Origin: a virus
Taxonomy: Duplodnaviria; Caudoviricetes
IMG/VR virus record: IMGVR_UViG_3300030330_004274
Coordinates: 96,001 to 160,000 of that record
Length of the DNA: 64,000 bases
Strand: one strand, 5' to 3'
Under the pieces are notes generated by a model. That model worked only from the letters and a program-made list of their open reading frames with translations, made no database searches and was not told the DNA's origin. The position numbers and the translations under genes were made by a program. Positions 3,623 through 51,978 of this stretch are shown one piece after another. Position 1 is the stretch's first letter; each line of letters begins with the position of its first letter.

Positions 3623-3638
3623 ATATTTATATATGAAT
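3623..3638 (+). promoter_or_regulatory. Late-promoter-like motif ATATTTATATATGAAT
   Basis: One of 14 related intergenic copies, each upstream of a + strand gene. Confidence 0.7.
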
Positions 3639-3649
3639 AGGACTATACG

Positions 3650-3997
3650 ATGGCTAAATCTAAAGTAAAATGGAATGGAACAACTGAAGATGGTAGAACC
3701 ACTTCTGTAGTTTGGGGAGATAATCCATTTACTTGGGGTGATGTAGCATTAGCAGTTGAAATAGCAGATGCTATTGATGGTGTTGGTTATAAGAAAAGAA
3801 AAGAACGTCTTGATAATATATTCAAAGACGAGGAAAAAAAGAAAAGATTTATTCACTTGGTTTGTAGAATTAAAGGTGAAAAAGTTTATGATGATAAAGT
3901 AGAAGTAAAAGATGTTGATGTTAAAGTAGAAGATGCTGAATTAGTTGTAGAAACCATTGTAAAGAAGGTTAAGTTGGAGATAAAAGAAAATGTATAA
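3650..3997 (+). CDS. Hypothetical protein
   Basis: ORF with AGGA SD directly after the promoter motif. Confidence 0.7.
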   Translation: MAKSKVKWNGTTEDGRTTSVVWGDNPFTWGDVALAVEIADAIDGVGYKKRKERLDNIFKDEEKKKRFIHLVCRIKGEKVYDDKVEVKDVDVKVEDAELVVETIVKKVKLEIKENV

Positions 3998-5136: not shown

Positions 5137-6261
5137 ATGGCAACTTGGAAAAAGATTATAACGAGTGGAAGTAACGCTGATTTAAATCAGATAACTGCAA
5201 GTGCAGTTAAATTTCCAGATGATTCAATACCAATTGCTTCACTTGTATCTGATGCAGTAGACATTGTTGCAGGTGATGGATTAAAAACAGGTGGTTCTGT
5301 AACACTTGGTAGTTCTGTAACATTAGATATTGATGTAAGTGATTTTGCAGGAACTGGTTTAAGTGGTGATGGTTCAGAGAATTTAAATATAGATGCTGCT
5401 CAAACAGGTATAACATCCATACTTGCAACTGATTTAAAAATTGGTGAAGATAATGAAACAAAAATTGATTTTGAAACAGTTGATGAAATACATTTTGATG
5501 TAGATAATACAGAATTATTAAATTTAAGTGCTAGTGTAATTAGTGGTTCTGCAGTATCTACTGGTTCATTTGGATTATTACGAGTAGGTGGAACAAGTTT
5601 TACTGCAGCACAATTAACTGATGCAGTTGATAATGATATTGAATTTGATGGTTCTACTGCAAATGGTGTTTTAACATTTAAAGATGCCGATGAAATGTCA
5701 GTTGAAAGTAATTTAACTTTTGATGGAACTAATTTACTTATTGGTAGTACTGGTAAACTATATTTAAATGATGCTGGTGGTGAACATATATCAGGTGATG
5801 GTAATATTTTATCTATTGCAGGTGGAAACGAAATAGATTTAACAGCAACAGCGATTGATATAAATGGTAATGTTGATATTAGTGGTAATACAGTAATTGG
5901 TGGTGATTTAACAGTAAATGGTACAACTACGACCATAGGAACTACTAATACTGAAGTAAAAGACCAATTTATATTTTTGGCAAGTGGTTCTGCTGGTAGT
6001 AATTTAGATGCTGGTATTATTGTACAAAGTGGTTCAGCACATAATTCTGGTTCTGCACTTTATCACGATAAATCAGACCAAAGATGGTCAGTTGCAAAAA
6101 ATATGGGTAAAACAAATAGTGGAGCTACTAATTCACCAACACAATTTGTAACTACAGTAAAAACTGATACTGTAAATCCTAGCACAGATTCTGGTTCGTA
6201 TGGGGCAGGTGAAATGCATGTCAATACATCAACTGGTGAAATTTGGATAAGATTTGGATAA
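5137..6261 (+). CDS. Tail fibre protein
   Basis: N-terminus MATWKKIITSGS is paralogous to 6547. GDLTVNGTTTTI..TNTEVKD fibre motif. Confidence 0.7.
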   Translation: MATWKKIITSGSNADLNQITASAVKFPDDSIPIASLVSDAVDIVAGDGLKTGGSVTLGSSVTLDIDVSDFAGTGLSGDGSENLNIDAAQTGITSILATDLKIGEDNETKIDFETVDEIHFDVDNTELLNLSASVISGSAVSTGSFGLLRVGGTSFTAAQLTDAVDNDIEFDGSTANGVLTFKDADEMSVESNLTFDGTNLLIGSTGKLYLNDAGGEHISGDGNILSIAGGNEIDLTATAIDINGNVDISGNTVIGGDLTVNGTTTTIGTTNTEVKDQFIFLASGSAGSNLDAGIIVQSGSAHNSGSALYHDKSDQRWSVAKNMGKTNSGATNSPTQFVTTVKTDTVNPSTDSGSYGAGEMHVNTSTGEIWIRFG

Positions 6262-6270
6262 GAGGTATGA

Positions 6271-6474
6271 ATGGCAGTAAACTTTAATGGTGGATTTAAA
6301 GTGGGTGGTGTTGAATATAGACATCCACTATCATCAGAAGAAATAAGATTTTTATTAACGATATTAAAACAATGTAATTTTACAGGTGAAGAGTTAGAAA
6401 ATTTAATGGTAATAACTTTGAAATTACAAGAAGAGTATAAAGTAGTTTTAGAAAAAGAAAAACAGACAAAGTAG
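6271..6474 (+). CDS. Small helical protein, possible fibre assembly chaperone
   Basis: GAGG SD, lies between two fibre genes. Function inferred from position only. Confidence 0.5.
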   Translation: MAVNFNGGFKVGGVEYRHPLSSEEIRFLLTILKQCNFTGEELENLMVITLKLQEEYKVVLEKEKQTK

Positions 6475-6535
6475 TTATTGGCCCAATGTGTGGCAACATT
6501 GGGAAGTGGGCTTAACACAAGTAACCAACCGTAAC
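6474..6535 (+). ncRNA. Structured cis-regulatory RNA (three-way junction, c-di-GMP-II-riboswitch-like core)
   Basis: GC-richer intergenic island. P1 GTTATTGG/CCGTAAC; P2 CCCAATGT/ACATTGGG; P3 GG-GCTT/AAGT-AA-CC. Ends immediately before the AGGAGG SD of 6547. Confidence 0.55.
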
Positions 6536-6546
6536 AGGAGGATTTA

Positions 6547-8847
6547 ATGCCAAACTGGAAAAAAGTCATTACTTCAGGAAGTAATGTACATCTCAATCAT
6601 ATAACTTCAAGTGGAAACATTAGTTCAAGTGGTGGAACTTTATCTGCAAATGCAGTTGAAGTACAAGGTAATACTGCACTTAATATAGTTGGTGGTAAGG
6701 TAACTTTTGGACAACACATAGGTGACCTTCAGATTGGTAAAAATACTTCACAAACTACTCTTACAGTAGCAGCACACATAACCGCAAGTGGAAACATAAG
6801 TTCAAGTGGAAGATTACAAGCTATAGCTTTAGATGTGGTAGGTGGGGGTTCATCTACTCGACAAACTGCAGTTCAATATCATTCACCCTCCAATACTATA
6901 ACATTTGGAGATACAGATTTACCAACAAAAGTTCAAGGAACTACTCTTACACTAACTCCAAACATAACCGCAAGTGGAAACATAAGTGCTAGTAATACTT
7001 CATTTTTTAGTGGACAAGATGCAATTTTTACAAGAGAATTAAGAGTAGGTGGTGCTCCTTCAGTAAATGAACCTGGAGTTGTTGTAAGTGGACAAATAAG
7101 TTCAAGTGGTTTCATTTCAACTAAATCACACATAACCGCAAGTGGAAATATAAGTTCAAGTGGAAACTTATCTGTAACTGGTGATTTAAATTTAGATGGA
7201 AAATCTCATTTTGAAGGAAACATAACCGCGAGTGGAGACATAAGTTCAAGTGGTGATATTATTGGTGGTGATTTAAAATTAACAGCTGGTTCAATACAAC
7301 TTGCATCAGATGCAGATAACAAAATAGAGATAGATGGTTCTGGACATAAATATAATGCTAAAGCTGGACATACAATGCATTATAATGAACAACAAGAAAA
7401 TGTTACGATTAAAATGGATTCATCTGCTGGAAACAATTTATTTTCAAAAGGTAATGCACAATTAATTGGAATGGGTGGTAACGAAGACCCTAAAGCTACA
7501 TTAGATATTACAGGTAATTTACAGGCATCATCACACATAACCGCAAGTGGAACAATAAGTGCAAGTGGGGGTGGGCATGTATTTGGAGGAAGTGGAGCTG
7601 GTTCATTAGACGTTCAAGGTACAATTACTTCAAGTGGTGATATAAGTGCAAGTGGTGCAAATTTTATTGGACATGATATTGAATTATATGGAGGACAAGT
7701 TTCCCTAAAAAATTCAGGTTCCCAATCTAATATTAGATTTTATTGTGAATCCAACAATGCTCACTTTGTAAAACTTCAAGCTCCTGCTCACGCTGATTTT
7801 GGTGGTAATGTTACAATAACTCTTCCACCAACAACAGATACATTAGTGGGTAAAACCACAACTGATACTTTAACAAACAAAACTTTAACAAGTCCAGATA
7901 TTAATACACCTGATATTGATGGTGGTACGATTGATAATACGATTATTGGTGGAACAACAAAAACTGCTGGTTCATTTACAATACTTACGGGTGTGAATAT
8001 AACTGGTAGTGGTGCAATAAGTGGAAGTGGAACAGGTTCATTCGGAGCTTTAAAAGTAAATGGAACTGATTATCTTGGTAATCCAACAAGTTATTTGACA
8101 GAACTTGATGAGAGTACTGATGCAACAGATGATAAAATCATCCTTTGGGACCAGAACGCAAGTGCTTGGAAGTATATGACACTTGATAACTTACAAGATT
8201 CTATCGATACAACTGGTGGAGGTGGTGGCGGTGGAATATCATTTGATGGTAGTGCTGCAAATGGTGTTCTTACATTTAAAGATTCCGATGAAGCAACCGT
8301 TGAATCTAATTTAACTTTTGATGGAACTACTTTAATCACTGCTGGTAATTTAAGTGCAAGTGGTAATTTTCAAGTTGAACAAACTGCTTCAATACAATTT
8401 AATAATTTTGACACAGGTTCAAATCCAAGAGGTGATACATATGGTACTGTAGGTAATGCTATGGGTGATATTGTAAAATTTGGTATAGTTGATACAGGTA
8501 CGATGGTTGAAGGAAAAGTATATTATTTGAATACAAGTGGACAATGGGTTTTAGCTAATGCTACTGATAATACTGCTGGTGCAGATGAATTATTAGCTAT
8601 TGCTTTAGGAGATAACCCTGCAGTACACGGAATGTTATTGAGGGGTGTTGTAAGAATATCTAATGCTCCTGCAGCTTCTAATGTAAGAGGTCGTGCGGTT
8701 TATATAAGTACAACTGGTGGGTTAGCAACTACTACAGCCCCAAGTAGTAATAATAATATAGTTAGGGTAATGGGATACCTTTTAGATAATACTAAAAAAC
8801 AAATTTGGTTTAATCCATCATCAGTATGGGTGAAAGTAACAGCATAG
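6547..8847 (+). CDS. Tail fibre protein
   Basis: HITASGNISSSG repeats, TDTLTNKTLTSP motif, C-terminal domain with GKVYYL...W..A.A motif. Confidence 0.75.
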   Translation: MPNWKKVITSGSNVHLNHITSSGNISSSGGTLSANAVEVQGNTALNIVGGKVTFGQHIGDLQIGKNTSQTTLTVAAHITASGNISSSGRLQAIALDVVGGGSSTRQTAVQYHSPSNTITFGDTDLPTKVQGTTLTLTPNITASGNISASNTSFFSGQDAIFTRELRVGGAPSVNEPGVVVSGQISSSGFISTKSHITASGNISSSGNLSVTGDLNLDGKSHFEGNITASGDISSSGDIIGGDLKLTAGSIQLASDADNKIEIDGSGHKYNAKAGHTMHYNEQQENVTIKMDSSAGNNLFSKGNAQLIGMGGNEDPKATLDITGNLQASSHITASGTISASGGGHVFGGSGAGSLDVQGTITSSGDISASGANFIGHDIELYGGQVSLKNSGSQSNIRFYCESNNAHFVKLQAPAHADFGGNVTITLPPTTDTLVGKTTTDTLTNKTLTSPDINTPDIDGGTIDNTIIGGTTKTAGSFTILTGVNITGSGAISGSGTGSFGALKVNGTDYLGNPTSYLTELDESTDATDDKIILWDQNASAWKYMTLDNLQDSIDTTGGGGGGGISFDGSAANGVLTFKDSDEATVESNLTFDGTTLITAGNLSASGNFQVEQTASIQFNNFDTGSNPRGDTYGTVGNAMGDIVKFGIVDTGTMVEGKVYYLNTSGQWVLANATDNTAGADELLAIALGDNPAVHGMLLRGVVRISNAPAASNVRGRAVYISTTGGLATTTAPSSNNNIVRVMGYLLDNTKKQIWFNPSSVWVKVTA

Positions 8848-42819: not shown

Positions 42820-45800
42820 GTGGCTATTAACATTAAACCAGATTCGCCTAATTCAATTTTAATTAGTGGTAGTAATAACCAAATTGAAGTTAAAACTTCA
42901 AATAGTAGTGCTAATAATATTACCATATCTCAAGGTGAAACCAAAACAGTAAATGTAACTGCACTTGGACCTCAAGGGTCTCAAGGAATACAAGGTGTTC
43001 AAGGATTACCTGGTAATATAACTGGTTCGGTTACTAATATTACTGCAAGTGGAACTATAATGGGATATGATAACTTTTTGTTAAGAGATGGAGGCCCAAC
43101 TGGAGACAAAGTCGTTGATATATTAAATTCATCCGATGATGGTCTTATAAGAGTTTATCAAAATAATTCAGTTAAAGCAAGAATACACGGAAATGGAACA
43201 TCATATTTTGATGGTGGAAATGTTGGTATAGGTACTGGTCATACTGTACCGAAGGAATTAACCGTAGAAGGTGACATAAGTTCAAGTGGTGCAATCAATA
43301 CTTTATCACACATAACCGCAAGTGGAAACATAAGTTCAAGTGGTATTTTATACAATGATGAAATATATTCTGATGGGGGAGTAAGAGTTCAACTTACCGA
43401 TGGTACTTATCAAAGAGCAGTTGTACCAAGTACCTCTGATAATATTCAGTTTGGTGATGCCGGTGTTGATGATTTAAAATTTAAAAATGCTGCAGGTAAT
43501 GCGGTTGTAATTAAAGAAAGTGGAAATGTTGGTATTGGAACACAAACTCCAACAGAAAAATTACAAGTTGTTGGTAATATTCTTACAAGTGGAGCAATCA
43601 AATCATCACATATAACTTCAAGTGGAAACATAAGTGGTAGTAATGGAAACATATTAGGATTTAATTCAGCCTCATTTAATTACATATCAGCATCACACAT
43701 TGATACTAATGCAGATTCATTGAGTATTGGTGGTGTATCAATGAATAAAACACTTTTACAAAATTTAAAACGAGGTTTTTCATCAACTTCTTTAACTGCA
43801 GTAGGAAAATCTGCAACAACTGGTTCTTTTTTAATTACTGGTTCATTAGAAGTAGATACAGGTGATAGAACTGTAACAATCGGTCCTATATCAAATGGAG
43901 CATCGGCCGATATAAGTGTTGCAGGTGGGGCTTTATTCTTACAATCTGATTCAGGTAATAATATTCAAGCAGGTGGCCCAATATGGCCATCTTCAACTTT
44001 AACAAAAGATTTAGGTTCATCAACAAGATTATGGAGAAGTCTTTCTGTTCAACATATATCTGCAAGTGGAACAATAAGTGGTAGTAGTGGTGATATAGTA
44101 GGATTTAATAATATAACTGCTGAGGGAGATTTATTTGTTAAACAATACATCAAACACAAAGGTGATGATAATACATTCATAAACTTTACTGATAATAGGA
44201 TTCGATTTAATGCTGGTGGTATTAATTTTTTGAGTTTAGACCAAGATGGTAGTGCTCCCTATCCTGCTACAGTTAATAATGGTGGTAATAGAATCAACTT
44301 TAGAGTTGTGGATAGAAATACCGACCTTCTTCTAAAAACTGATTCTGAATTATTTAAGGTTAACTTATATTATGCAGGTAATCAAAAATTAGAAACAACC
44401 ATAGGTGGTATTAATGTAACTGGTCACATAACTGCAAGTGGAGATATAAGTTCAAGTGGAACTACAACTACTGAAGATTTAATTGTTAAGGATAATGCAA
44501 CAGTTGCTGGTAATTTAGATATTGCTGATACGATATATCATACGGGAGATTCAAATACAAAGATAAGATTCCCTGCTGTCGATACGATTGCTTTTCATAC
44601 TTCTGGTGATGAACAAATGAGAATTGATTCAGCTGGAAACATAACCGCGAGTGGAAACATAACTGCAAGTGGTGATTTAAATATAACAAACATAACTGCA
44701 AGTGGAACTGGTACATTTAATAAATTAGAAGTACATAATCCAAGCCCAAAATTAATATTAAAAGATACAACTGATGATGACAATCATTCTATACAATTTA
44801 CAGACCCATCAAATGTAGTGCATTATCAAATAGATTCTGGAAATGATATTTTTAATTTTAAATCTGTTGTAAACAATCCAATGTCTTTTTGGACTAATAA
44901 TACCGAAAGAATAAGAATTTTAAATGATGGAAAAGTTGGTATCGGAACATCAAGTCCAACAAAACCATTACAAGTAGCAGGTGATATAAGTGCTAGTGGT
45001 GATTATTTTTCACCTGAGTTCTCATCAATTGGAGGACATATAACCGCAAGTGGAAACATCAGTGCAAGTGGAACAGGTACTCATCATTTTGGTGGCACCG
45101 TCCAATTAGATGGTAGTGGTTTAGTTATTCAAAATGATTCTACTACAGAAATTACTTTTACTGGAACGAATAATTCAAACATTACTTCACAAGGAAATCT
45201 GTATCTCAAAGCTGGTTCATCAAAGAAAATGTACTTTGGTGCAAACAATACTGATGAACAAGTTGCAATAGATACAAATGGATTTGTTGGTATCGGAACA
45301 ACAAGTCCAGATGCTCCTTTACATATAAGTAGTTCTGATAATGTAGCAGCAATATTTGGTTCAACTGATTCTCTTTCCTATATATCTTTTCTGACACCAA
45401 CTACTGATGATAAGAATAGTGTTAGAGTAGGAGCCGTTGGAAATCAATTACAATTTATAGCAGGTGGTTCAGAAGCTGTTAGAATTAATGGTAGTGGAAA
45501 TGTCGGTATCGGAACAACTGCTCCAACAAAAAAATTACAAGTAGCAGGTGATATAAGTGCGAGTGGTGATATTCATTTAAATAATACTAAAGCTTTAAAA
45601 ATACAAAATGCAGCTGGAACTTCAACTCAAGTTGTAAAAGTTGATTCTGGTGATGATATTTATATTGGACATCCTAATTTTGATAACATATATGTACAAG
45701 GTAGTGGTGGAACTATTATGACACTACTTGGTACTGGTAATGTTGGAATCGGAACAACAAATCCAACTGTCAAATTGGATGTAGAAAGTAGTGATGATTT

Positions 45801-48800
45801 ATTGGCTACTTTTGTCTCAACGGATAATAAAGCAATTGTACAAATAAAAGATAATGATACAGTAGGATATATCTCTGCAGAAAATTCACATCTTTCATTA
45901 GGTGGGAACACTGGTGTTAATACAAATAATTTAAATATAGCAACTGCAAGTGGACATGTTTCTATTGGAACAACCAACCATACAAAAGAATTAACCATAG
46001 AAGGTTCAATGAGTGCAAGTGGATTCATACACGCATCAGGTTCAATTTTAGGAACTCAAGATGACCCATCAAGAATTTTTGATAAGAATAAAGATTTATT
46101 TATTTCTGCATCTGATGATTTATTTTTAAAAGCAGATGATATTAATATTCAAACTCATGCCGGTGGTAATTGGATAACATTAAATGGTGGTGATGGGAAG
46201 ATGGGTATCGGAGATAGTAGCCCAACAGAAAAATTAGTAGTAGATGGTAACATAAGTGCAAGTGGTAGAATATATATAGGTGATGGTACAGAAGCATTAC
46301 CTTCTCTCACATTTGGATTATCTACAGATACAGGACTTTATAGAAGGTCTAATAATGTAATTGGATTCTCTGCGGGTGGTGATGGACAGATGACTCTTAA
46401 TGAAACAGGTGTTAGTATTGGTGAGGGTTATGTTGCAAACAATAATACACCTGCAAATGCAAATGGTTTAATTGTTGAAGGTAGAGTTGGTATTGGAAAT
46501 CCAGCACCATCAAAAACCTTAACTGTAGCTGGTGATATAAGTGCTAGTGGAAATCTTTTTGTTGTAGGTGCAATTTCAGCATCTTCAATCAATACAACAA
46601 TCGTATCATCTTCTGTACTTTTCACAAGTGGTTCAAATATCATTGGTGATTCTGTTACTGATAAACATCATTTTACAGGTTCAGTTTCTATAAGTGGTTC
46701 AGGACCACAATTAAATGTTAGAGGTGATATTCCAAAATTAAGATTAGAAGATACGAATGCAACCAATAAGGCATTTGGTGAAGTTTTACATTCTAATGGT
46801 GTATTAACTTTAAGGGCTGATGAGGATGGTGATGTAGGTGGTTCTATGATTACTATGGAAATTGATGGTACTCAAAAAATAAAAATTTTAAATGATGGAA
46901 AAATGGGTATTTCAAATACTACAATAACTCCAACAAAACAATTACAAGTAGAAGGTGATATAAGTGCAAGTGGTGATTTATTTGTTAGAACTGGTTCGTT
47001 TGGTATAGGTGATAAAATGTTTATTCATGCTGATAGTAGTAATTCCGACATAGTTGCCAACAACAATCATTTTCAACTAAGAACAAATAGAACACAAGAT
47101 GCAATAAAAATTAAACCAAACAATACTGATGTAATGTTTATTAGTGCTAGTGGTAATGTTGGTATTGGAACAACAACTCCTGTATTTTCAAGTGGTACAG
47201 GTTTAATGATTAACGATTCAACTCAAGCAAATTTAAGATTAGCAGATGGAAGTGATTATACTGATGTTGCTAATTCTGCAGGTGACTTGTATTTAATTAA
47301 TAGAAAATCAACTGGTGATATTAAATTTAGAGTAAATACATCAACAGAAGCTATGACAATTGTTGAAAGTGGAAATATCGGTATCGGAACAACAAGTCCA
47401 CAACAATTATTGCATGTATCAGGTGGTGGTGTAAGAATTTCACCTGTTCACGGAAATGTAGCTTCATTACAATTAGAAGATACACGAGCAAGTTATGTTG
47501 GTCAAATCGCACAACGCTCTGATGGTAGAATATCAATAACTACTCGAACAGGTGTATTTGGAAACTCTGGAAGTTTAGAAATACTTGATACTGGAAGAAT
47601 TGGTATTGGAACAACAAGTCCAGACACACTACTACACATTAGTGGTACTAACAATGTAAACCTTTTAAAACTTGATGCACCAAAAGGTGAATTTGTATTT
47701 AAAACAAATTCAACATCAGGTTATACAAGTAATTTTCTATTAGATGATACGGGTTTGGATATAGGACACGATAGTGTTCATAGAGCATTGAATTTAAAAA
47801 CTGGTGCTGAAGATAGACTTACAATTCTTGGTGGTGGAAAAGTCGGTATTGGAACAACAAGTCCAGAAGCAGGACACACAACAGGTGCAGGATTAACAAT
47901 ACAAAATAATGGTACTATGGCAAGTACTGCTTCATTTGCAGCTGCTAGAATATCATCTTCTTTATTATTAAAATCCAGTGATAATCAATTTCTTGCTTTT
48001 GATATGAATGAAATATCTCAATATGGTGATAGTTTACATCTTGCTGCATTAGGTAATGCAACTAATGATGGTAACATTTTTATTAAAGCCAATGCAAATA
48101 GTGCAACTTCTATGACCACAAGAATGTTCATTTCATCAAGTGGAAATATCGGTATCGGAACAACCGCTCCAACAGAAAAACTTTCAGTAAAAGGTGGATA
48201 CATTATAGCAACTGGTTCTTCTCATACTCACGGATTTGTATTAGATAGAGCAGGTATTGATACATACTCAATAAGACCTCTTGATGGTGGATTAACAATT
48301 TATAATGAAACTGAAACTCGTAAAGAAATGACTTTCGATGGGACAGGAAAAGTTGGTATTGGAAATCAGAATCCAACTCATAAATTAACAGTTGGTGGTG
48401 ATATAAGTGCAAGTGGTAATTTACTTTTAGGTGGTGGGATAACTTCAAGTAAAGATATAGTTCTTGACGATTTTGCCGATGCTGCTATAAGATTCAAAGA
48501 TGGTTCTGGTGCCACAACTAATAATTTTTTAGAAAATGACCAATGGAAACAATCAGCTACTCTTGGAACAACTATAAACAATACAGCAGGAATAATTAAA
48601 TTAGAATCTAAAGGTGTTTCTAATGGATTAGTATTAAGTGGTTCAAATGTTGGTATCGGAACATCCGATATTAAAAATGGATTACATATTAGTGGTTCGA
48701 CTGGAACAACATCAGGTATCAGACAATCAAGAGCTGGTGTTAAAATATGGAATCAAGAAATTGACTCAAATGGAAGACTTCAATGGGGTTATCGTTCAAC

Positions 48801-51800
48801 TGAAGCGGGAAGTAGAACCACAACATTTACATTAGATGATAATAACAATGTTGGTATTGGTGTAGCTGCACCATCAACTAAACTTCATATAGTTGAAACT
48901 GGTAGTAGTAATTCTCAATTAAGAATAGAATCTACTGGTTCAGGTGGAGGTGAAAATGTAGCTGGTATTAATTTATATGCAGATAATGATTTTGCACAAG
49001 AAGCATATTTTAGAATGGGTGATGATGGTTTAAAAATTGGAACTACTGATAATGAAGATATAACTTTTGAAACTGATAATGGAGATAAATCACTTGTTCT
49101 TAAACATAATGCAGGTCAACCAAATGATGTAGGTTTTCACGGAGTTGGTAGTTCAAATACACTATTTATTTCTCAAAGTGGTCAAGTTGGTATAGCTAAG
49201 GGTGGAAAAAATTGGAGTACTAATGGCCCAACAGGTTCTCTTTGTATTGAGGCAATACAAACTCTATCAGGTTCATTTTGGCAATCCCCACATATAAAAT
49301 TACAATCAAGAAATACTTCCAACTATGAAGGTAGAGTTGGTATGACATTTGAAACAAGTACCAATAGAGGTGGATATGGTTTTTCAATTGGTGCTAATAG
49401 ATACCATACCGATGGTAGACCTGCGTTTACAATTAATAGTCATTATGGTGGTAATGATTTATCAAGAGGGTCTGGTAATGAAATTATTAGAGTTGATGGA
49501 TATAATAATAGAGTTGGTATTGGTGTAAATGAATTTACAAGTTCTGTTCCATCAACAGTATTGCATGTTAAAGATAACCATCTTGATTATAGAGTGGGTG
49601 TTAATGGTATAGGAACAATTCATTCTTCATCTGGAACACACGGTATGGCTGATTTCACAATTACAGATAAAGATAATAGTGATACAAGAGCTGCTCTACA
49701 AGTTCAAGGTAACAATGGTAATACGGAAGTGTTGTTTGCTGCGAGTAGTGGAAAAGTTGGTATCGGAACAACAAGTCCATCACAAACTTTAACCGTAGCA
49801 GGAGGAATTAGTTCAAGTGGTGATTTAACTGTTGGTAATCAAGTGGGAAGTGCTGTTAATGCATATGGAACATTACAAGTAAATCAACCAGCAGATAATG
49901 ATGAAAATGGAATAGGAATCATTAATTCAACTAATCAAAGAAGTTTAAGAATATATGTAGATGGTAGTAATAATTCAATTCTTAATAGTGGTGATGGTGG
50001 TGGACAAAATCTTATTTTAAATGAAGGTGCTGGTAAAGTAGGTATCGGAACAACAAGTCCAACAACATTATTCCATATACACAAAGAAATGACTAACAAC
50101 GCTGATAATAGTTTAATGACTATACAAGGTGATTTGGCTGCAGGAGATTTAGGTACTGAAAAAGTATTAATAGACTTCACGATGACGGATAACAATGATA
50201 ATAACTATCCACAAGTCAAAATAGGTGCGGCAGTAGGAAGAAATGCAGACGCAGATAGTTTAGCTAAAGAAGGTAGTGGAGCATTTGTTGTATATACTTC
50301 ACCTGGTTCATCTAATACTGATGGAGAAGATAATACAGCGGAAAGAATGCGAGTTGATTATCTTGGAAATGTTGGTATCGGAACAACAAGTCCAGACCAA
50401 CTTTTACATATTCAAGATGACAATCATTTACAATTAAAATTAGATTCATCACAAGGTTCGGATAAAGATATTACACTAAGATTTACATCATCAGCTCAAA
50501 CTTGGGATTTCAAACAATATGCTCAAGGTAATTTAAATGACCATCAATATGGAATGCATTTAGTTGATGTTACAAATAGTAGTAAAGCACCATTTAGTGT
50601 TTTCCCTAATAATGCATCTAAAACATTAGTATTAAGTGGTTCAAGAGTTGGTATCGGAACATCAAGTCCAGAAAAACTATTAGATGTAAAAGCAACTGGT
50701 GATAACGATGGGATACGATTGGAGAGGGCTGGTGGTACAGATGTTGTTGCTTTATTAAATCAAGCTGCTACAGATGCTGCAGAATTTGGATTATATGATG
50801 GTGGTGTTAAAAAAATACATATTACATCCGCTAATGGTAACGATAATTATTTTAATAATGGTGGAAATGTTGGTATCGGAACATCAAGTCCAACTGAAAA
50901 ATTAGAATTAGCAAGTGGTGGTAAAATAAAACTAACTTCAACAAGTGCAACTTCAGGTTCAGTTATTGTTTTAGCTCACGATACTGAGGCTATACTATCA
51001 ACAGAAAACGATAGTGCTACTAATGACCCAATACAATTTGTTTTAAAACATAATATGGGTGACACAGAATTAATCAATAGAAGAGGTGATTTAATATTAT
51101 CTGCTAGTGGAAACATTGGTATCGGAACAAAAAGTCCAAATAGAGATTTCCATCTTTCTGGCTCAGGTGTCGTACGATTAGCTATTGATGGACAAGGTGG
51201 AAATAATGCAAGACTTCATTTTCAAGAAGGTGGTGCGGAAAGAATGAACATTGGTTTTAATCCAACTGGTAAATATTTTGATTTTTATGATGGTGCAAAT
51301 ACATTTGCTAAATTTTATAGTGGTAGTAATTCTGCTAATACACTTGTTGCAAGTAGTTCAAAAATAGGTATTGGAACAGCAACTCCTGATAATCCTTTAC
51401 ACATTGTTTATAATAGTAGTGCAGGAGAAGGTTCTGTTCAAAACAATACAGGTGCTGTTGGTTTACAGATTGAAAATACTAATGCGGATGGAGTCGCAGC
51501 TATACATTTAAGGTCATCAGATTCTGATGGTTATATATTGTATGATGATTCAGGTGCTAACAAAGGAGATTTTTATTTTAAAACAGATGGTCAAGATGGT
51601 GATGCTGTTTTAACTTTATTAGATGGTGGAAATGTCGGTATCGGAACAGAGAGTCCAGCACAAAAATTAGAAGTAGTTGGAAACATAAGTGCAAGTGGAA
51701 CTATATACGCAGACCAATTTAATGATGGTGGAACTAATCTAAATGTACCAGATTATGTTTTTGAACCAGAGTATAGATTAAGAACATTAACAGAGGTAGA

Positions 51801-51978
51801 AGAACATATATCTGCTTCTAAACATTTACCAGGTATCCCATCAATTGATGATATAAATGGGTGGAAAGAACTATCAGTAGGTGATAGAGATATGAAACTT
51901 CTTGAAAAAGTTGAGGAATTAACACTATACATTATCAGTTTACAAAAACAAATTAATGAGTTAAAAAACTCTAAATAA
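42820..51978 (+). CDS. Giant fibre protein (3052 aa) with C-terminal chaperone-like domain
   Basis: GTG start with AAGGAG. Short collagen-like GPQGSQGIQGVQG, more than 20 GNVGIGT.SP...L.V.G.ISASG repeats, PDYVF...HLPGIPS...LLEKVEELTLY C-terminus. Confidence 0.85.
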   Translation: MAINIKPDSPNSILISGSNNQIEVKTSNSSANNITISQGETKTVNVTALGPQGSQGIQGVQGLPGNITGSVTNITASGTIMGYDNFLLRDGGPTGDKVVDILNSSDDGLIRVYQNNSVKARIHGNGTSYFDGGNVGIGTGHTVPKELTVEGDISSSGAINTLSHITASGNISSSGILYNDEIYSDGGVRVQLTDGTYQRAVVPSTSDNIQFGDAGVDDLKFKNAAGNAVVIKESGNVGIGTQTPTEKLQVVGNILTSGAIKSSHITSSGNISGSNGNILGFNSASFNYISASHIDTNADSLSIGGVSMNKTLLQNLKRGFSSTSLTAVGKSATTGSFLITGSLEVDTGDRTVTIGPISNGASADISVAGGALFLQSDSGNNIQAGGPIWPSSTLTKDLGSSTRLWRSLSVQHISASGTISGSSGDIVGFNNITAEGDLFVKQYIKHKGDDNTFINFTDNRIRFNAGGINFLSLDQDGSAPYPATVNNGGNRINFRVVDRNTDLLLKTDSELFKVNLYYAGNQKLETTIGGINVTGHITASGDISSSGTTTTEDLIVKDNATVAGNLDIADTIYHTGDSNTKIRFPAVDTIAFHTSGDEQMRIDSAGNITASGNITASGDLNITNITASGTGTFNKLEVHNPSPKLILKDTTDDDNHSIQFTDPSNVVHYQIDSGNDIFNFKSVVNNPMSFWTNNTERIRILNDGKVGIGTSSPTKPLQVAGDISASGDYFSPEFSSIGGHITASGNISASGTGTHHFGGTVQLDGSGLVIQNDSTTEITFTGTNNSNITSQGNLYLKAGSSKKMYFGANNTDEQVAIDTNGFVGIGTTSPDAPLHISSSDNVAAIFGSTDSLSYISFLTPTTDDKNSVRVGAVGNQLQFIAGGSEAVRINGSGNVGIGTTAPTKKLQVAGDISASGDIHLNNTKALKIQNAAGTSTQVVKVDSGDDIYIGHPNFDNIYVQGSGGTIMTLLGTGNVGIGTTNPTVKLDVESSDDLLATFVSTDNKAIVQIKDNDTVGYISAENSHLSLGGNTGVNTNNLNIATASGHVSIGTTNHTKELTIEGSMSASGFIHASGSILGTQDDPSRIFDKNKDLFISASDDLFLKADDINIQTHAGGNWITLNGGDGKMGIGDSSPTEKLVVDGNISASGRIYIGDGTEALPSLTFGLSTDTGLYRRSNNVIGFSAGGDGQMTLNETGVSIGEGYVANNNTPANANGLIVEGRVGIGNPAPSKTLTVAGDISASGNLFVVGAISASSINTTIVSSSVLFTSGSNIIGDSVTDKHHFTGSVSISGSGPQLNVRGDIPKLRLEDTNATNKAFGEVLHSNGVLTLRADEDGDVGGSMITMEIDGTQKIKILNDGKMGISNTTITPTKQLQVEGDISASGDLFVRTGSFGIGDKMFIHADSSNSDIVANNNHFQLRTNRTQDAIKIKPNNTDVMFISASGNVGIGTTTPVFSSGTGLMINDSTQANLRLADGSDYTDVANSAGDLYLINRKSTGDIKFRVNTSTEAMTIVESGNIGIGTTSPQQLLHVSGGGVRISPVHGNVASLQLEDTRASYVGQIAQRSDGRISITTRTGVFGNSGSLEILDTGRIGIGTTSPDTLLHISGTNNVNLLKLDAPKGEFVFKTNSTSGYTSNFLLDDTGLDIGHDSVHRALNLKTGAEDRLTILGGGKVGIGTTSPEAGHTTGAGLTIQNNGTMASTASFAAARISSSLLLKSSDNQFLAFDMNEISQYGDSLHLAALGNATNDGNIFIKANANSATSMTTRMFISSSGNIGIGTTAPTEKLSVKGGYIIATGSSHTHGFVLDRAGIDTYSIRPLDGGLTIYNETETRKEMTFDGTGKVGIGNQNPTHKLTVGGDISASGNLLLGGGITSSKDIVLDDFADAAIRFKDGSGATTNNFLENDQWKQSATLGTTINNTAGIIKLESKGVSNGLVLSGSNVGIGTSDIKNGLHISGSTGTTSGIRQSRAGVKIWNQEIDSNGRLQWGYRSTEAGSRTTTFTLDDNNNVGIGVAAPSTKLHIVETGSSNSQLRIESTGSGGGENVAGINLYADNDFAQEAYFRMGDDGLKIGTTDNEDITFETDNGDKSLVLKHNAGQPNDVGFHGVGSSNTLFISQSGQVGIAKGGKNWSTNGPTGSLCIEAIQTLSGSFWQSPHIKLQSRNTSNYEGRVGMTFETSTNRGGYGFSIGANRYHTDGRPAFTINSHYGGNDLSRGSGNEIIRVDGYNNRVGIGVNEFTSSVPSTVLHVKDNHLDYRVGVNGIGTIHSSSGTHGMADFTITDKDNSDTRAALQVQGNNGNTEVLFAASSGKVGIGTTSPSQTLTVAGGISSSGDLTVGNQVGSAVNAYGTLQVNQPADNDENGIGIINSTNQRSLRIYVDGSNNSILNSGDGGGQNLILNEGAGKVGIGTTSPTTLFHIHKEMTNNADNSLMTIQGDLAAGDLGTEKVLIDFTMTDNNDNNYPQVKIGAAVGRNADADSLAKEGSGAFVVYTSPGSSNTDGEDNTAERMRVDYLGNVGIGTTSPDQLLHIQDDNHLQLKLDSSQGSDKDITLRFTSSAQTWDFKQYAQGNLNDHQYGMHLVDVTNSSKAPFSVFPNNASKTLVLSGSRVGIGTSSPEKLLDVKATGDNDGIRLERAGGTDVVALLNQAATDAAEFGLYDGGVKKIHITSANGNDNYFNNGGNVGIGTSSPTEKLELASGGKIKLTSTSATSGSVIVLAHDTEAILSTENDSATNDPIQFVLKHNMGDTELINRRGDLILSASGNIGIGTKSPNRDFHLSGSGVVRLAIDGQGGNNARLHFQEGGAERMNIGFNPTGKYFDFYDGANTFAKFYSGSNSANTLVASSSKIGIGTATPDNPLHIVYNSSAGEGSVQNNTGAVGLQIENTNADGVAAIHLRSSDSDGYILYDDSGANKGDFYFKTDGQDGDAVLTLLDGGNVGIGTESPAQKLEVVGNISASGTIYADQFNDGGTNLNVPDYVFEPEYRLRTLTEVEEHISASKHLPGIPSIDDINGWKELSVGDRDMKLLEKVEELTLYIISLQKQINELKNSK

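What the first reader, a model, noticed from the sequence alone, without database searches (positions are those of the whole stretch)
6474..6546. c-di-GMP-II-riboswitch-like three-way junction abutting a tail fibre RBS
Seen: a 62-nt GC-richer intergenic element folds as P1 (6474-6481/6529-6535), P2 (6482-6489/6496-6503), linker AAGU, then GG-GCUU-loop-AAGU-AA-CC, then AA-CC. P1 ends at the base before AGGAGG. The recalled c-di-GMP-II aptamer order is P1-GG, P2, AAAUU-GG-GCAC...GUGC-AA-CC-GA-CC-P1. This element has the same order and conserved core but no kink-turn or pseudoknot arms, and has AA in place of GA. Inference: a minimal or variant cyclic-dinucleotide sensor, or a protein-binding structure, that tunes translation of a receptor-binding fibre to host state.
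Basis: partly seen in the sequence, partly recalled or inferred. Interest (0 to 1): 0.75.

Follow-up and report, generated by a model that had tools for sequence, protein, structure and literature searches.

The report
New phage fibre-gene leader RNA
The 62-base element is real: it is one copy of a previously uncatalogued, strongly conserved three-stem RNA that sits just before the start codon of one tail-fibre-like gene in more than 160 marine phage sequences, including a cultured Flavobacterium phage. It most likely controls how much of that fibre is made, and it is not a c-di-GMP-II riboswitch.

Summary
The described fold exists at 6474-6535 exactly as written. One sequence alone is not convincing (fold z-score 0 to -1.1). 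Comparison is decisive. I found 164 distinct copies in marine viral contigs and one in the cultured Flavobacterium phage vB_FspM_immuto. All 163 real copies lie upstream of a gene starting MP(N/S/A)WKK: 160 are 6-19 nt before it and 3 carry a 112-120 nt insert; the 164th entry is a GC-rich chance match without that gene. All three stems covary strongly: 95.5% of cells are paired, against 82.6% in shuffles. One P1 pair reads AU:53, GC:36, other:0. Twelve junction nucleotides are invariant.

No Rfam 15 family matches. The c-di-GMP-II and glutamine models find nothing at E<=10, and my model finds nothing at ten true c-di-GMP-II riboswitches. The junction does share short strings with the c-di-GMP-II ligand pocket. 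However, the kink-turn, P3 and pseudoknot are absent, the base-reading G is an invariant A, and the AA bulge varies.

Best reading: a new cis-acting leader that gates translation of a fibre-like structural gene through its P1 helix, with the invariant junction as docking site for an effector of unknown kind. The cultured phage makes this testable.

The parts
6474..6535 (+). The three-way-junction leader RNA as a whole. The model match runs 6473-6536.
   Evidence: R1 hit of 61.2 bits, E about 1e-15. It is the only copy in the genome.
6474..6481 (+). P1, 5' strand (GUUAUUGG; U6478 or U6479 is bulged).
   Evidence: Pairs with 6529-6535. Family counts for four P1 pairs are AU:59/GC:12/UA:5/CG:2, UA:61/CG:9/UG:8, UA:76/UG:9/CG:3, and AU:53/GC:36 with no unpaired case.
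6482..6503 (+). P2 hairpin. It has 8 bp here and ranges from 2 bp plus a tetraloop to about 10 bp in relatives.
   Evidence: Sequence. Its length varies from 8 to 26 nt with compensatory changes. The base pairs CC/GG are nearly invariant.
6504..6507 (+). J2/3 linker AAGU.
   Evidence: A 86/88, A 88/88, G 88/88, U 88/88.
6508..6526 (+). P3 hairpin: two G-C pairs (GG/CC), a two-nucleotide bulge (AA here), a G.U wobble, then a variable stem.
   Evidence: Outer pair GC:63, AU:25, other:0. Wobble GU:73, AU:13. Inner pairs show 4-5 pair types each. The bulge is AA 38, AU 25, UA 12, AG 7.
6527..6528 (+). J3/1 linker AA.
   Evidence: A 86/88 and A 88/88.
6529..6535 (+). P1, 3' strand (CCGUAAC).
   Evidence: It ends 11 nt before the ATG.
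6537..6541 (+). Shine-Dalgarno-like GGAGG, starting one base after P1.
   Evidence: Sequence. In the commonest SD-bearing relatives the first G's of the SD pair inside an extended P1.
6547..8847 (+). Regulated gene: a 766-aa fibre-like protein starting MPNWKKVITSGS.
   Evidence: ORF. Relatives are unnamed marine proteins with bactofilin/FapA beta-helix Pfam hits. The homologue in phage immuto is annotated 'putative tail fiber-like protein'. Its repeats match annotated tail fibres of cyanophages and Pseudomonas jumbo phages.
6271..6474 (+). Upstream 67-aa ORF, a member of a small helical-hairpin protein family. Its stop codon overlaps the first base of P1.
   Evidence: 93 of 97 upstream ORFs fall in one BLAST cluster. 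AF2 model has pLDDT 77 and two helices. No Pfam or PDB match.
5137..6261 (+). Paralogous fibre-like gene starting MATWKKIITSGS. It carries no copy of the RNA.
   Evidence: Its N-terminus matches immuto gp055, 'virion structural protein'. An MAxWKK gene lies 1.2-2.8 kb upstream in 72 of 103 loci.
3623..3631 (+). Nearest upstream ATATTTATA box, the likely promoter of the operon that contains the leader in this genome.
   Evidence: 16 boxes in the window against 4.2 expected; 15 are on the + strand and several of them, checked against the ORF list, lie between ORFs.

Best explanation
This is one copy of a new family of cis-acting leader RNAs of 50-67 nt. The fold is a three-way junction. P1 stacks directly on P2 with no linker. 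The invariant strands AAGU (J2/3) and AA (J3/1) line the junction, together with the invariant closing pairs of all three stems.

The RNA is transcribed with a fibre-like structural gene and ends 6-19 nt before its start codon. The proposed mechanism is inferred, not shown. The 3' strand of P1 occupies the stretch that a 30S subunit must hold single-stranded, about -7 to -25. Where an SD exists, P1 usually contains its first bases. The stability of P1 would therefore set the rate of translation initiation. The invariant junction would be the docking site of an effector that stabilises the fold.

The kind of effector is open. My odds are about 0.3 for a small molecule (orphan riboswitch), about 0.3 for a protein, and about 0.1 for the ribosome itself. 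Because a paralogous fibre-like gene with the same N-terminal anchor lies just upstream without the RNA, the element may set the ratio of two fibres on the virion.
For: - **Family size:** 164 distinct copies.
- **Covariation:** 95.5% of cells paired against 82.6% in shuffles, 0 of 500 shuffles as high. Covariation score is 0.413 against 0.185 shuffled and 0.01-0.10 for slid partners. Ten of 16 pairs change on both sides.
- **Strand:** abundant G.U pairs (GU:73, UG:40) fit only the + strand.
- **Invariant core:** 12 invariant junction nucleotides, while loops and stem lengths vary freely.
- **Link to the gene:** an RNA-first scan and a gene-first scan both give complete co-occurrence with MP(N/S/A)WKK genes.
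- **Spacing:** 6-19 nt to the ATG in 160 of 163 copies, mode 11.
- **SD overlap:** SD-like sequence in 61 of 164. In the main SD class the G's of the SD pair with the 5' flank of P1.
- **Specificity:** one copy per genome and no chance hit better than E 0.018 (20.9 bits, against 27.8-69 bits for real copies) in about 2.4 Mb.
- **Phage-borne:** not found in 150 other genomes of the order of MAG G001, the metagenome-assembled genome (MAG) in which one copy was binned.
- **Cultured example:** phage immuto, 53.8 bits, with a compensatory A-U at an otherwise invariant P1 pair.
Against: - No experiment bears on function.
- No conserved alternative (anti-P1) pairing was found. The candidate pairing of the P1 5' strand with the start codon region does not covary.
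- In the window itself the SD lies just outside P1.
- Nearest-neighbour folding gives P1 only a mean probability of 0.27 once 33 nt of coding sequence are added.
- The exclusive link to one gene family may partly reflect shared descent of one phage lineage with conserved gene order. The gene association is therefore not many independent observations.
Confidence: 0.62

Rival explanations
1. One reading: a minimal, unknotted relative of the c-di-GMP-II aptamer that binds a cyclic dinucleotide or similar nucleotide signal in the junction and so ties fibre synthesis to the host's signalling state. This is a sub-case of the small-molecule option above.
For: - Both RNAs share short strings in the same order: GG/CC atop P1; AGU after the 3' strand of P2; a helix GG(G/A)C..G(U/C) with an AA bulge, then CC; two purines; then CC opening the 3' strand of P1.
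- In c-di-GMP-II the ligand sits in the P1/P2/P4 junction and touches the AA bulge, the first linker purine and an A of the AGU linker (PMC13715770).
- Moving the 5' strand of the pseudoknot from the P3 loop to just after AGU would give the phage topology. This step is my inference.
Against: - RF01786 and its clan give no match at E<=10, and the reciprocal R1 search is empty.
- There is no kink-turn, no P3, no pseudoknot and no unpaired A between P1 and P2.
- The G that reads the lower base is an invariant A.
- The AA bulge is AA in only 38 of 88 rows.
- Because the motif reads AACC twice, two different mappings onto c-di-GMP-II are possible. That shows how little information the likeness carries.
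Confidence: 0.12
2. Effector-independent structure. In this reading the leader is a fixed fold that protects the 5' end of the mRNA, offers a ribosome standby or landing site, or enforces translational coupling with the small upstream ORF.
For: - In 108 of 161 copies a (T)ATTTATA promoter-like box lies 10-17 nt upstream, sometimes directly after a terminator hairpin, so the RNA would begin at P1.
- That box is a strand-specific, over-represented signal in the window, and several copies lie between ORFs.
- In 34 of 97 copies the upstream stop codon abuts P1, so a terminating ribosome would open it.
Against: A protective or coupling hairpin needs no invariant junction. Twelve invariant nucleotides across copies whose neighbouring proteins have diverged to about 15-30% identity point to a specific partner. 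The two contexts, promoter-proximal and intercistronic, do not share one such passive role.
Confidence: 0.15
3. An RNA-processing element or a transcription element. Examples would be a new self-cleaving ribozyme, an RNase site that separates the fibre cistron, or a put-like RNA that makes RNA polymerase resistant to termination through the late operon.
For: The element is compact and has conserved junction nucleotides. It lies between cistrons or just after a promoter and ahead of a long structural operon.
Against: No ribozyme family matches at E<=10. The tight spacing to the ATG is not needed for either role. A processing site is pointless where the RNA already starts the transcript.
Confidence: 0.08
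4. The element is a chance fold or a DNA-level signal, with no RNA structure under selection.
For: The fold energy of the single window sequence is no better than shuffles.
Against: Compensatory changes occur in all three stems, and stem lengths vary in steps that are not multiples of three. G.U pairs fit one strand only. The model shows specificity at the 1e-15 level.
Confidence: 0.01

Closest known systems
c-di-GMP-II riboswitch (Rfam RF01786; structure 3Q3Z)
   Same: A three-helix junction of similar size lying in a 5' leader. Short junction strings are shared in the same order: GG/CC atop P1, AGU after P2, a GG(G/A)C helix with an AA bulge followed by CC, and a two-purine linker into the CC of P1.
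   Different: The pseudoknot helix is a plain hairpin here. There is no kink-turn, no P3 and no unpaired A between P1 and P2. The ligand-reading G is an invariant A, and the bulge is variable. Covariance models fail in both directions. The gene context is a phage structural gene rather than signalling, motility or adhesion genes.
Glutamine riboswitch, glnA RNA (RF01739)
   Same: It has the same strand order: P1, an immediate P2 hairpin, then GGAAGU, then a P3 hairpin, then back to P1. It is about 60 nt long. It is found in marine bacteria and in pelagimyophage-type phages (PMC5393176; PMC9004378).
   Different: The 3' strand of the E-loop (GAAG) is absent, so the defining AGUA/GAA loop E cannot form. 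RF01739 gives no match at E<=10 in the whole genome.
Autogenous translational operators (T4 gene 32 and regA targets, ribosomal-protein leaders, the MS2 coat-protein operator). This entry rests on general knowledge and was not tested here.
   Same: A structured element next to the RBS of one particular gene. It would be a plausible way to balance the stoichiometry of a virion part.
   Different: No binding protein is known. The RNA core is far more conserved than either neighbouring protein. No Rfam leader family matches.
Orphan phage cis-regulatory motifs such as PhotoRC, manA and wcaG in marine cyanophages (Weinberg 2010, PMC2864571)
   Same: These are conserved structured leaders found mainly in marine phage and metagenome sequences, with unknown effectors.
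   Different: They have different sequences and folds, and none matches in Rfam 15. This motif is tied to a structural gene rather than to auxiliary metabolic genes.

Membership tests
c-di-GMP-II riboswitch (RF01786, clan CL00127) | Match to the family covariance model at or near the gathering score (53.5 bits) | tested here: not met
   No match at gathering score or at E<=10 in the window, the 168.8-kb genome, or 11 other copies. As a control, the same model scores true examples at 63-81 bits.
c-di-GMP-II riboswitch (RF01786, clan CL00127) | P2 with a kink-turn, a P3 bridge, and a pseudoknot formed by the P3 loop | tested here: not met
   P2 is a simple hairpin as short as 2 bp plus a tetraloop. 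Loops are not conserved. The GG(G/A)C strand lies after P2, not in a loop.
c-di-GMP-II riboswitch (RF01786, clan CL00127) | Invariant ligand-contacting residues: the AA bulge (A69, A70) and the G that follows CC (G73) | tested here: not met
   The bulge is AA in 38 of 88 rows, AU in 25 and UA in 12. The position after CC is A in 86 of 88 rows and never G. Residue roles are taken from PMC13715770.
c-di-GMP-II riboswitch (RF01786, clan CL00127) | Reciprocal recognition by a model of the phage motif | tested here: not met
   R1 with filters off finds nothing at the 10 riboswitch sites in L410-L419.
c-di-GMP-II riboswitch (RF01786, clan CL00127) | Binds c-di-GMP | not testable with these tools
   This needs in-line probing or ITC.
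Glutamine riboswitch glnA (RF01739) | Match to the family covariance model (gathering score 35 bits) | tested here: not met
   No match at E<=10 in the whole genome or in other copies.
Glutamine riboswitch glnA (RF01739) | E-loop formed by the AGUA and GAA strands flanking P3 | tested here: not met
   The 5' strand AAGU(A/G) is present. The 3' side reads AACC-AA and has no GAAG strand.
Riboswitch in general (metabolite-sensing leader) | A conserved aptamer with covarying stems in a 5' leader | tested here: met
Riboswitch in general (metabolite-sensing leader) | An expression platform: the RBS lies inside the switching helix, or an alternative pairing exists | tested here: inconclusive
   The G's of the SD pair inside an extended P1 in the main SD class, but not in the window. 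The candidate start-codon pairing fails a covariation test.
Riboswitch in general (metabolite-sensing leader) | Direct, selective binding of a small molecule | not testable with these tools
   No ligand can be inferred from the gene context, which is a single structural gene family.

The most novel reading that the evidence does not exclude
The leader is a new riboswitch class carried only by phages. It would reuse the pocket design of c-di-GMP-II in an unknotted three-way junction with a changed base-reading residue, and it would sense a nucleotide-derived signal of the infected cell, such as a cyclic di- or oligonucleotide from host signalling or defence. The phage would use it to decide how much of a second receptor-binding fibre, which shares its N-terminal anchor with the fibre encoded just upstream, is mounted on progeny virions.
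Probability: 0.12. Interest if true: 0.92.

Novelty: new variant of a known kind. Interest (0 to 1): 0.74.

Why it matters
Structured leaders that control phage structural genes are rare, and no riboswitch is known to govern a tail fibre. Its structure is exceptionally well supported, it is absent from Rfam 15, and it is always tied to one fibre-like gene. That gene has a paralogue with the same anchor next door.

If the leader responds to a signal, it would be a direct molecular link between the state of the infected cell and the receptor-binding equipment of the next phage generation. If it binds a protein or the ribosome, it is a new model for stoichiometry control or for SD-independent initiation in Bacteroidota. 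The copy in the cultured phage vB_FspM_immuto and its host Flavobacterium sp. LMO8 makes all of this testable at the bench.

Tried and rejected
1. **Rfam membership.** Gathering-score and E<=10 scans of the window, the local region and 11 other copies found nothing at the motif. RF01739 and RF01786 across the whole genome also found nothing.
2. **Single-sequence thermodynamics.** The fold is not distinguishable from shuffles.
3. **Start-codon sequestration.** I tested pairing of the P1 5' strand (UUGGC) with G-CCA-A of the start region. The Pro wobble base is a purine in 155 of 163 copies, against about 55% elsewhere in the same ORFs. It does not covary with its proposed partner: when that base is A, the wobble base stays A in 16 of 19. 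Rejected.
4. **GAAA-tetraloop receptor in P1.** The deletion variants read like the 11-nt receptor, but P2 and P3 loops and lengths do not correlate with it. Dropped.
5. **Host-encoded element.** The motif was not found in 150 other genomes of the order of MAG G001. The genome-collection pattern scan gave mostly chance hits; of the 120 rows returned, the screen picked out two real copies.
6. **Function of the small upstream protein.** No Pfam family, and a helical-hairpin model with no PDB match at E<=0.001.
7. **Link to 7-deazaguanine DNA modification.** This is known for immuto (PMC10516641), but there is no TGT/DpdA gene in this genome. Dropped.
8. **Absence from cultured phages.** A first tblastn of the window fibre's N-terminus against isolate phages found nothing. 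That result was misleading, because a DNA search then found immuto.
9. **Earlier notes of this scan.** Nothing was found; a second query was malformed.

Full report
**Observation**

The window is part of a 168.8-kb viral record. It is AT-rich (31.6% G+C), and terminase, portal and major head genes lie downstream of the site. On its own the fold is unremarkable, with z-scores of 0.01 and -1.09 against dinucleotide shuffles. Rfam 15 has no match at gathering score, or at E<=10 locally.

**Relatives**

Loci encoding relatives of the 766-aa protein that include its N-terminus carry the same element upstream. Parsing gave 89 distinct complete motifs, each followed by a gene starting MP(N/S/A)WKK. 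Four GC-rich chance hits lacked the 3' half.

To remove the bias of an RNA-based pattern, I then scanned for the gene's first codons only. All 100 matches that the covariance model returned from that search set lie upstream of an MPNWKK-type gene, except one weak second hit; three copies carry a 112-120 nt insert before the ATG. In all there are 164 distinct entries, one of which is a GC-rich chance match without the gene. Of the 163 real copies, 160 end 6-19 nt before the ATG, with a mode of 11.

**Structure**

It finds one hit per locus at 27.8-69 bits. The best chance hit in about 2.4 Mb has E = 0.018. R1 finds one hit in the whole genome.

On the gene-first alignment A3 (89 distinct rows), 95.5% of cells are standard pairs against 82.6% in shuffles. 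The covariation score is 0.413 against 0.185 for shuffles and 0.01-0.10 for slid partners. Ten of 16 pairs change on both sides. Examples:

- P1 pair: AU:53, GC:36, other:0.
- P3 outer pair: GC:63, AU:25, other:0.
- P1 outer pair: AU:59, GC:12, UA:5, CG:2.

P2 ranges from 2 bp plus a tetraloop to about 10 bp, and P3 varies likewise. Frequent G.U pairs fix the strand as that of the gene. Invariant in 88 rows are the GG/CC pairs atop P1, the first C-G pair of P2, AGU of the AAGU linker, one G-C pair of P3, and the second A of the AA linker.

The fold is therefore a three-way junction with no J1/2, a 4-nt J2/3 and a 2-nt J3/1. It also has a bulged base in P1, and a two-base bulge plus a G.U wobble in P3.

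**Context**

The upstream ORF belongs to one family of 47-101-aa proteins in 93 of 97 cases. This family is very divergent, with a mean column identity of 15%. It is modelled as a helical hairpin with pLDDT 77 and has no Pfam or PDB match.

There are two arrangements of the leader:

- **Promoter-proximal.** In 108 of 161 copies a (T)ATTTATA box lies 10-17 nt upstream, sometimes straight after a terminator hairpin. These transcripts should begin at P1. This step is inferred. The box is over-represented and strand-specific in the window: 16 found against 4.2 expected, 15 on the + strand.
- **Intercistronic.** In the other arrangement, to which the window belongs, the stop codon of the small ORF abuts P1 (34 of 97 copies) and an SD follows. 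In the commonest form the G's of the SD pair with the 5' flank of P1.

A further gene starting MAxWKK lies 1.2-2.8 kb upstream in 72 of 103 loci. In the window this is 5137-6261, starting MATWKKIITSGS. It matches the N-terminus of a 'virion structural protein' of phage immuto.

The regulated protein's relatives are unnamed marine proteins with beta-helix (bactofilin, FapA) Pfam hits. Its repeats match annotated tail fibres of cultured cyanophages and jumbo phages. 'Tail fibre-like' is therefore reasonable but unproven.

**A cultured example**

A DNA search found Flavobacterium phage vB_FspM_immuto, a 160-kb phage isolated from the Baltic Sea. R1 scores 53.8 bits at NC_055915.1 137892-137945. 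This site lies between gp053, a member of the small-protein family, and gp052, a 'putative tail fiber-like protein' starting MPSWKKVILSGS. An ATATTTATA box lies 5 nt upstream of the model hit (3949-3957 against 3963). There is also a compensatory A-U at a P1 pair that is G-C in all other copies.

One copy sits on a 15-kb contig binned into a Pelagibacter MAG. The model finds no copy in 150 other genomes of that order. The element therefore appears to be phage-borne.

**Comparison with c-di-GMP-II**

I fetched true examples and displayed them against the Rfam consensus. A 2026 structural paper (PMC13715770) places the ligand in the P1/P2/P4 junction. There it contacts the AA bulge of P4, the G after CC, an A of the linker that follows P2, the first pair of P2, and a non-canonical pair atop P1.

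The phage motif shares the strings AGU, GG(G/A)C..G(U), AA, CC, purine-A and CC in the same order, and GG/CC atop P1.

The differences are decisive for membership:

- The topology is different: a hairpin instead of a pseudoknot, with no kink-turn, P3 or J1/2 A.
- The base-reading G is an invariant A.
- The bulge that would hold the two ligand-contacting adenines is AA in only 38 of 88 rows.
- Neither covariance model recognises the other family.
- Because the motif reads AACC twice, a second mapping is equally possible, so the likeness carries little information.

The glutamine riboswitch has the same strand order and the string GGAAGU (PMC5393176), and it occurs in related marine phages (PMC9004378). 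However, its E-loop partner strand is missing here and RF01739 gives no match.

**Mechanism**

What is shown: a conserved RNA structure on the sense strand, fixed next to one gene's start codon, with an invariant junction.

What is inferred: P1 competes with 30S loading, and the junction binds something that sets P1's stability.

No alternative pairing could be supported. The only candidate was the P1 5' strand pairing with the start-codon region, suggested by a purine at the Pro wobble position in 155 of 163 copies. It fails a direct covariation test.

The RNA core is much more conserved than either neighbouring protein, and the element occurs with and without SD sequences. Both points favour a universal partner, such as a metabolite or the ribosome. 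The exclusive tie to one gene and its neighbours favours a phage protein, although conserved gene order within one lineage weakens that argument. I therefore leave the effector open, with the odds given above.

**Novelty**

Noticed in passing
window 3623, 12141, 22851, 28056, 41678, 52005, 55496 and others (+ strand): ATATTTATA occurs 16 times against 4.2 expected. Fifteen are on the gene strand and several lie between ORFs, so this is probably the phage's own (late?) promoter box. It is the reverse complement of the T4 late promoter TATAAATA extended by one T at the 3' end (TATAAATAT; the T4 consensus is from memory), but here it is oriented with the genes.
   Followed up: partly
window 5137-6261: A second fibre-like gene starts MATWKKIITSGS. 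It has the same N-terminal anchor as the regulated gene and as immuto gp055 ('virion structural protein'). It has no leader RNA of its own. The two proteins may compete for one attachment site.
   Followed up: partly
L326 3953-4064, L369 2384-2503, L371 11540-11651: In three contigs a conserved 112-120-nt insert separates the leader from the ATG. It has two predicted hairpins and its nature is unknown.
   Followed up: no
window 6271-6474 and 141 relatives (alignment A4 holds 101): A family of very divergent small helical-hairpin proteins (47-101 aa) lies upstream of the leader in 93 of 97 loci where an upstream ORF was found. Only one G and one K are nearly invariant. It could be a fibre chaperone or a regulator.
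   Followed up: partly
L238 / G001 contig C42: A 15-kb contig binned in a 'Candidatus Pelagibacter sp.' MAG carries a leader nearly identical to the window's. It is probably a phage contig mis-binned into the MAG, or a hint at the host.
   Followed up: partly
window 42820-51978: A single ORF of 3052 aa lies just after the major head gene. It was not examined.
   Followed up: no
L377 13575-13649: A weak second R1 hit (20.9 bits, E 0.018) keeps P1 and the start of P2 but lacks the junction core. It may be a decayed copy or a chance match.
   Followed up: no
L410 835-916 and 1501-1584: A genome from the same order as a Clostridiaceae MAG carries a c-di-GMP-I riboswitch and a c-di-GMP-II riboswitch about 600 nt apart on the same strand.
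   Followed up: no
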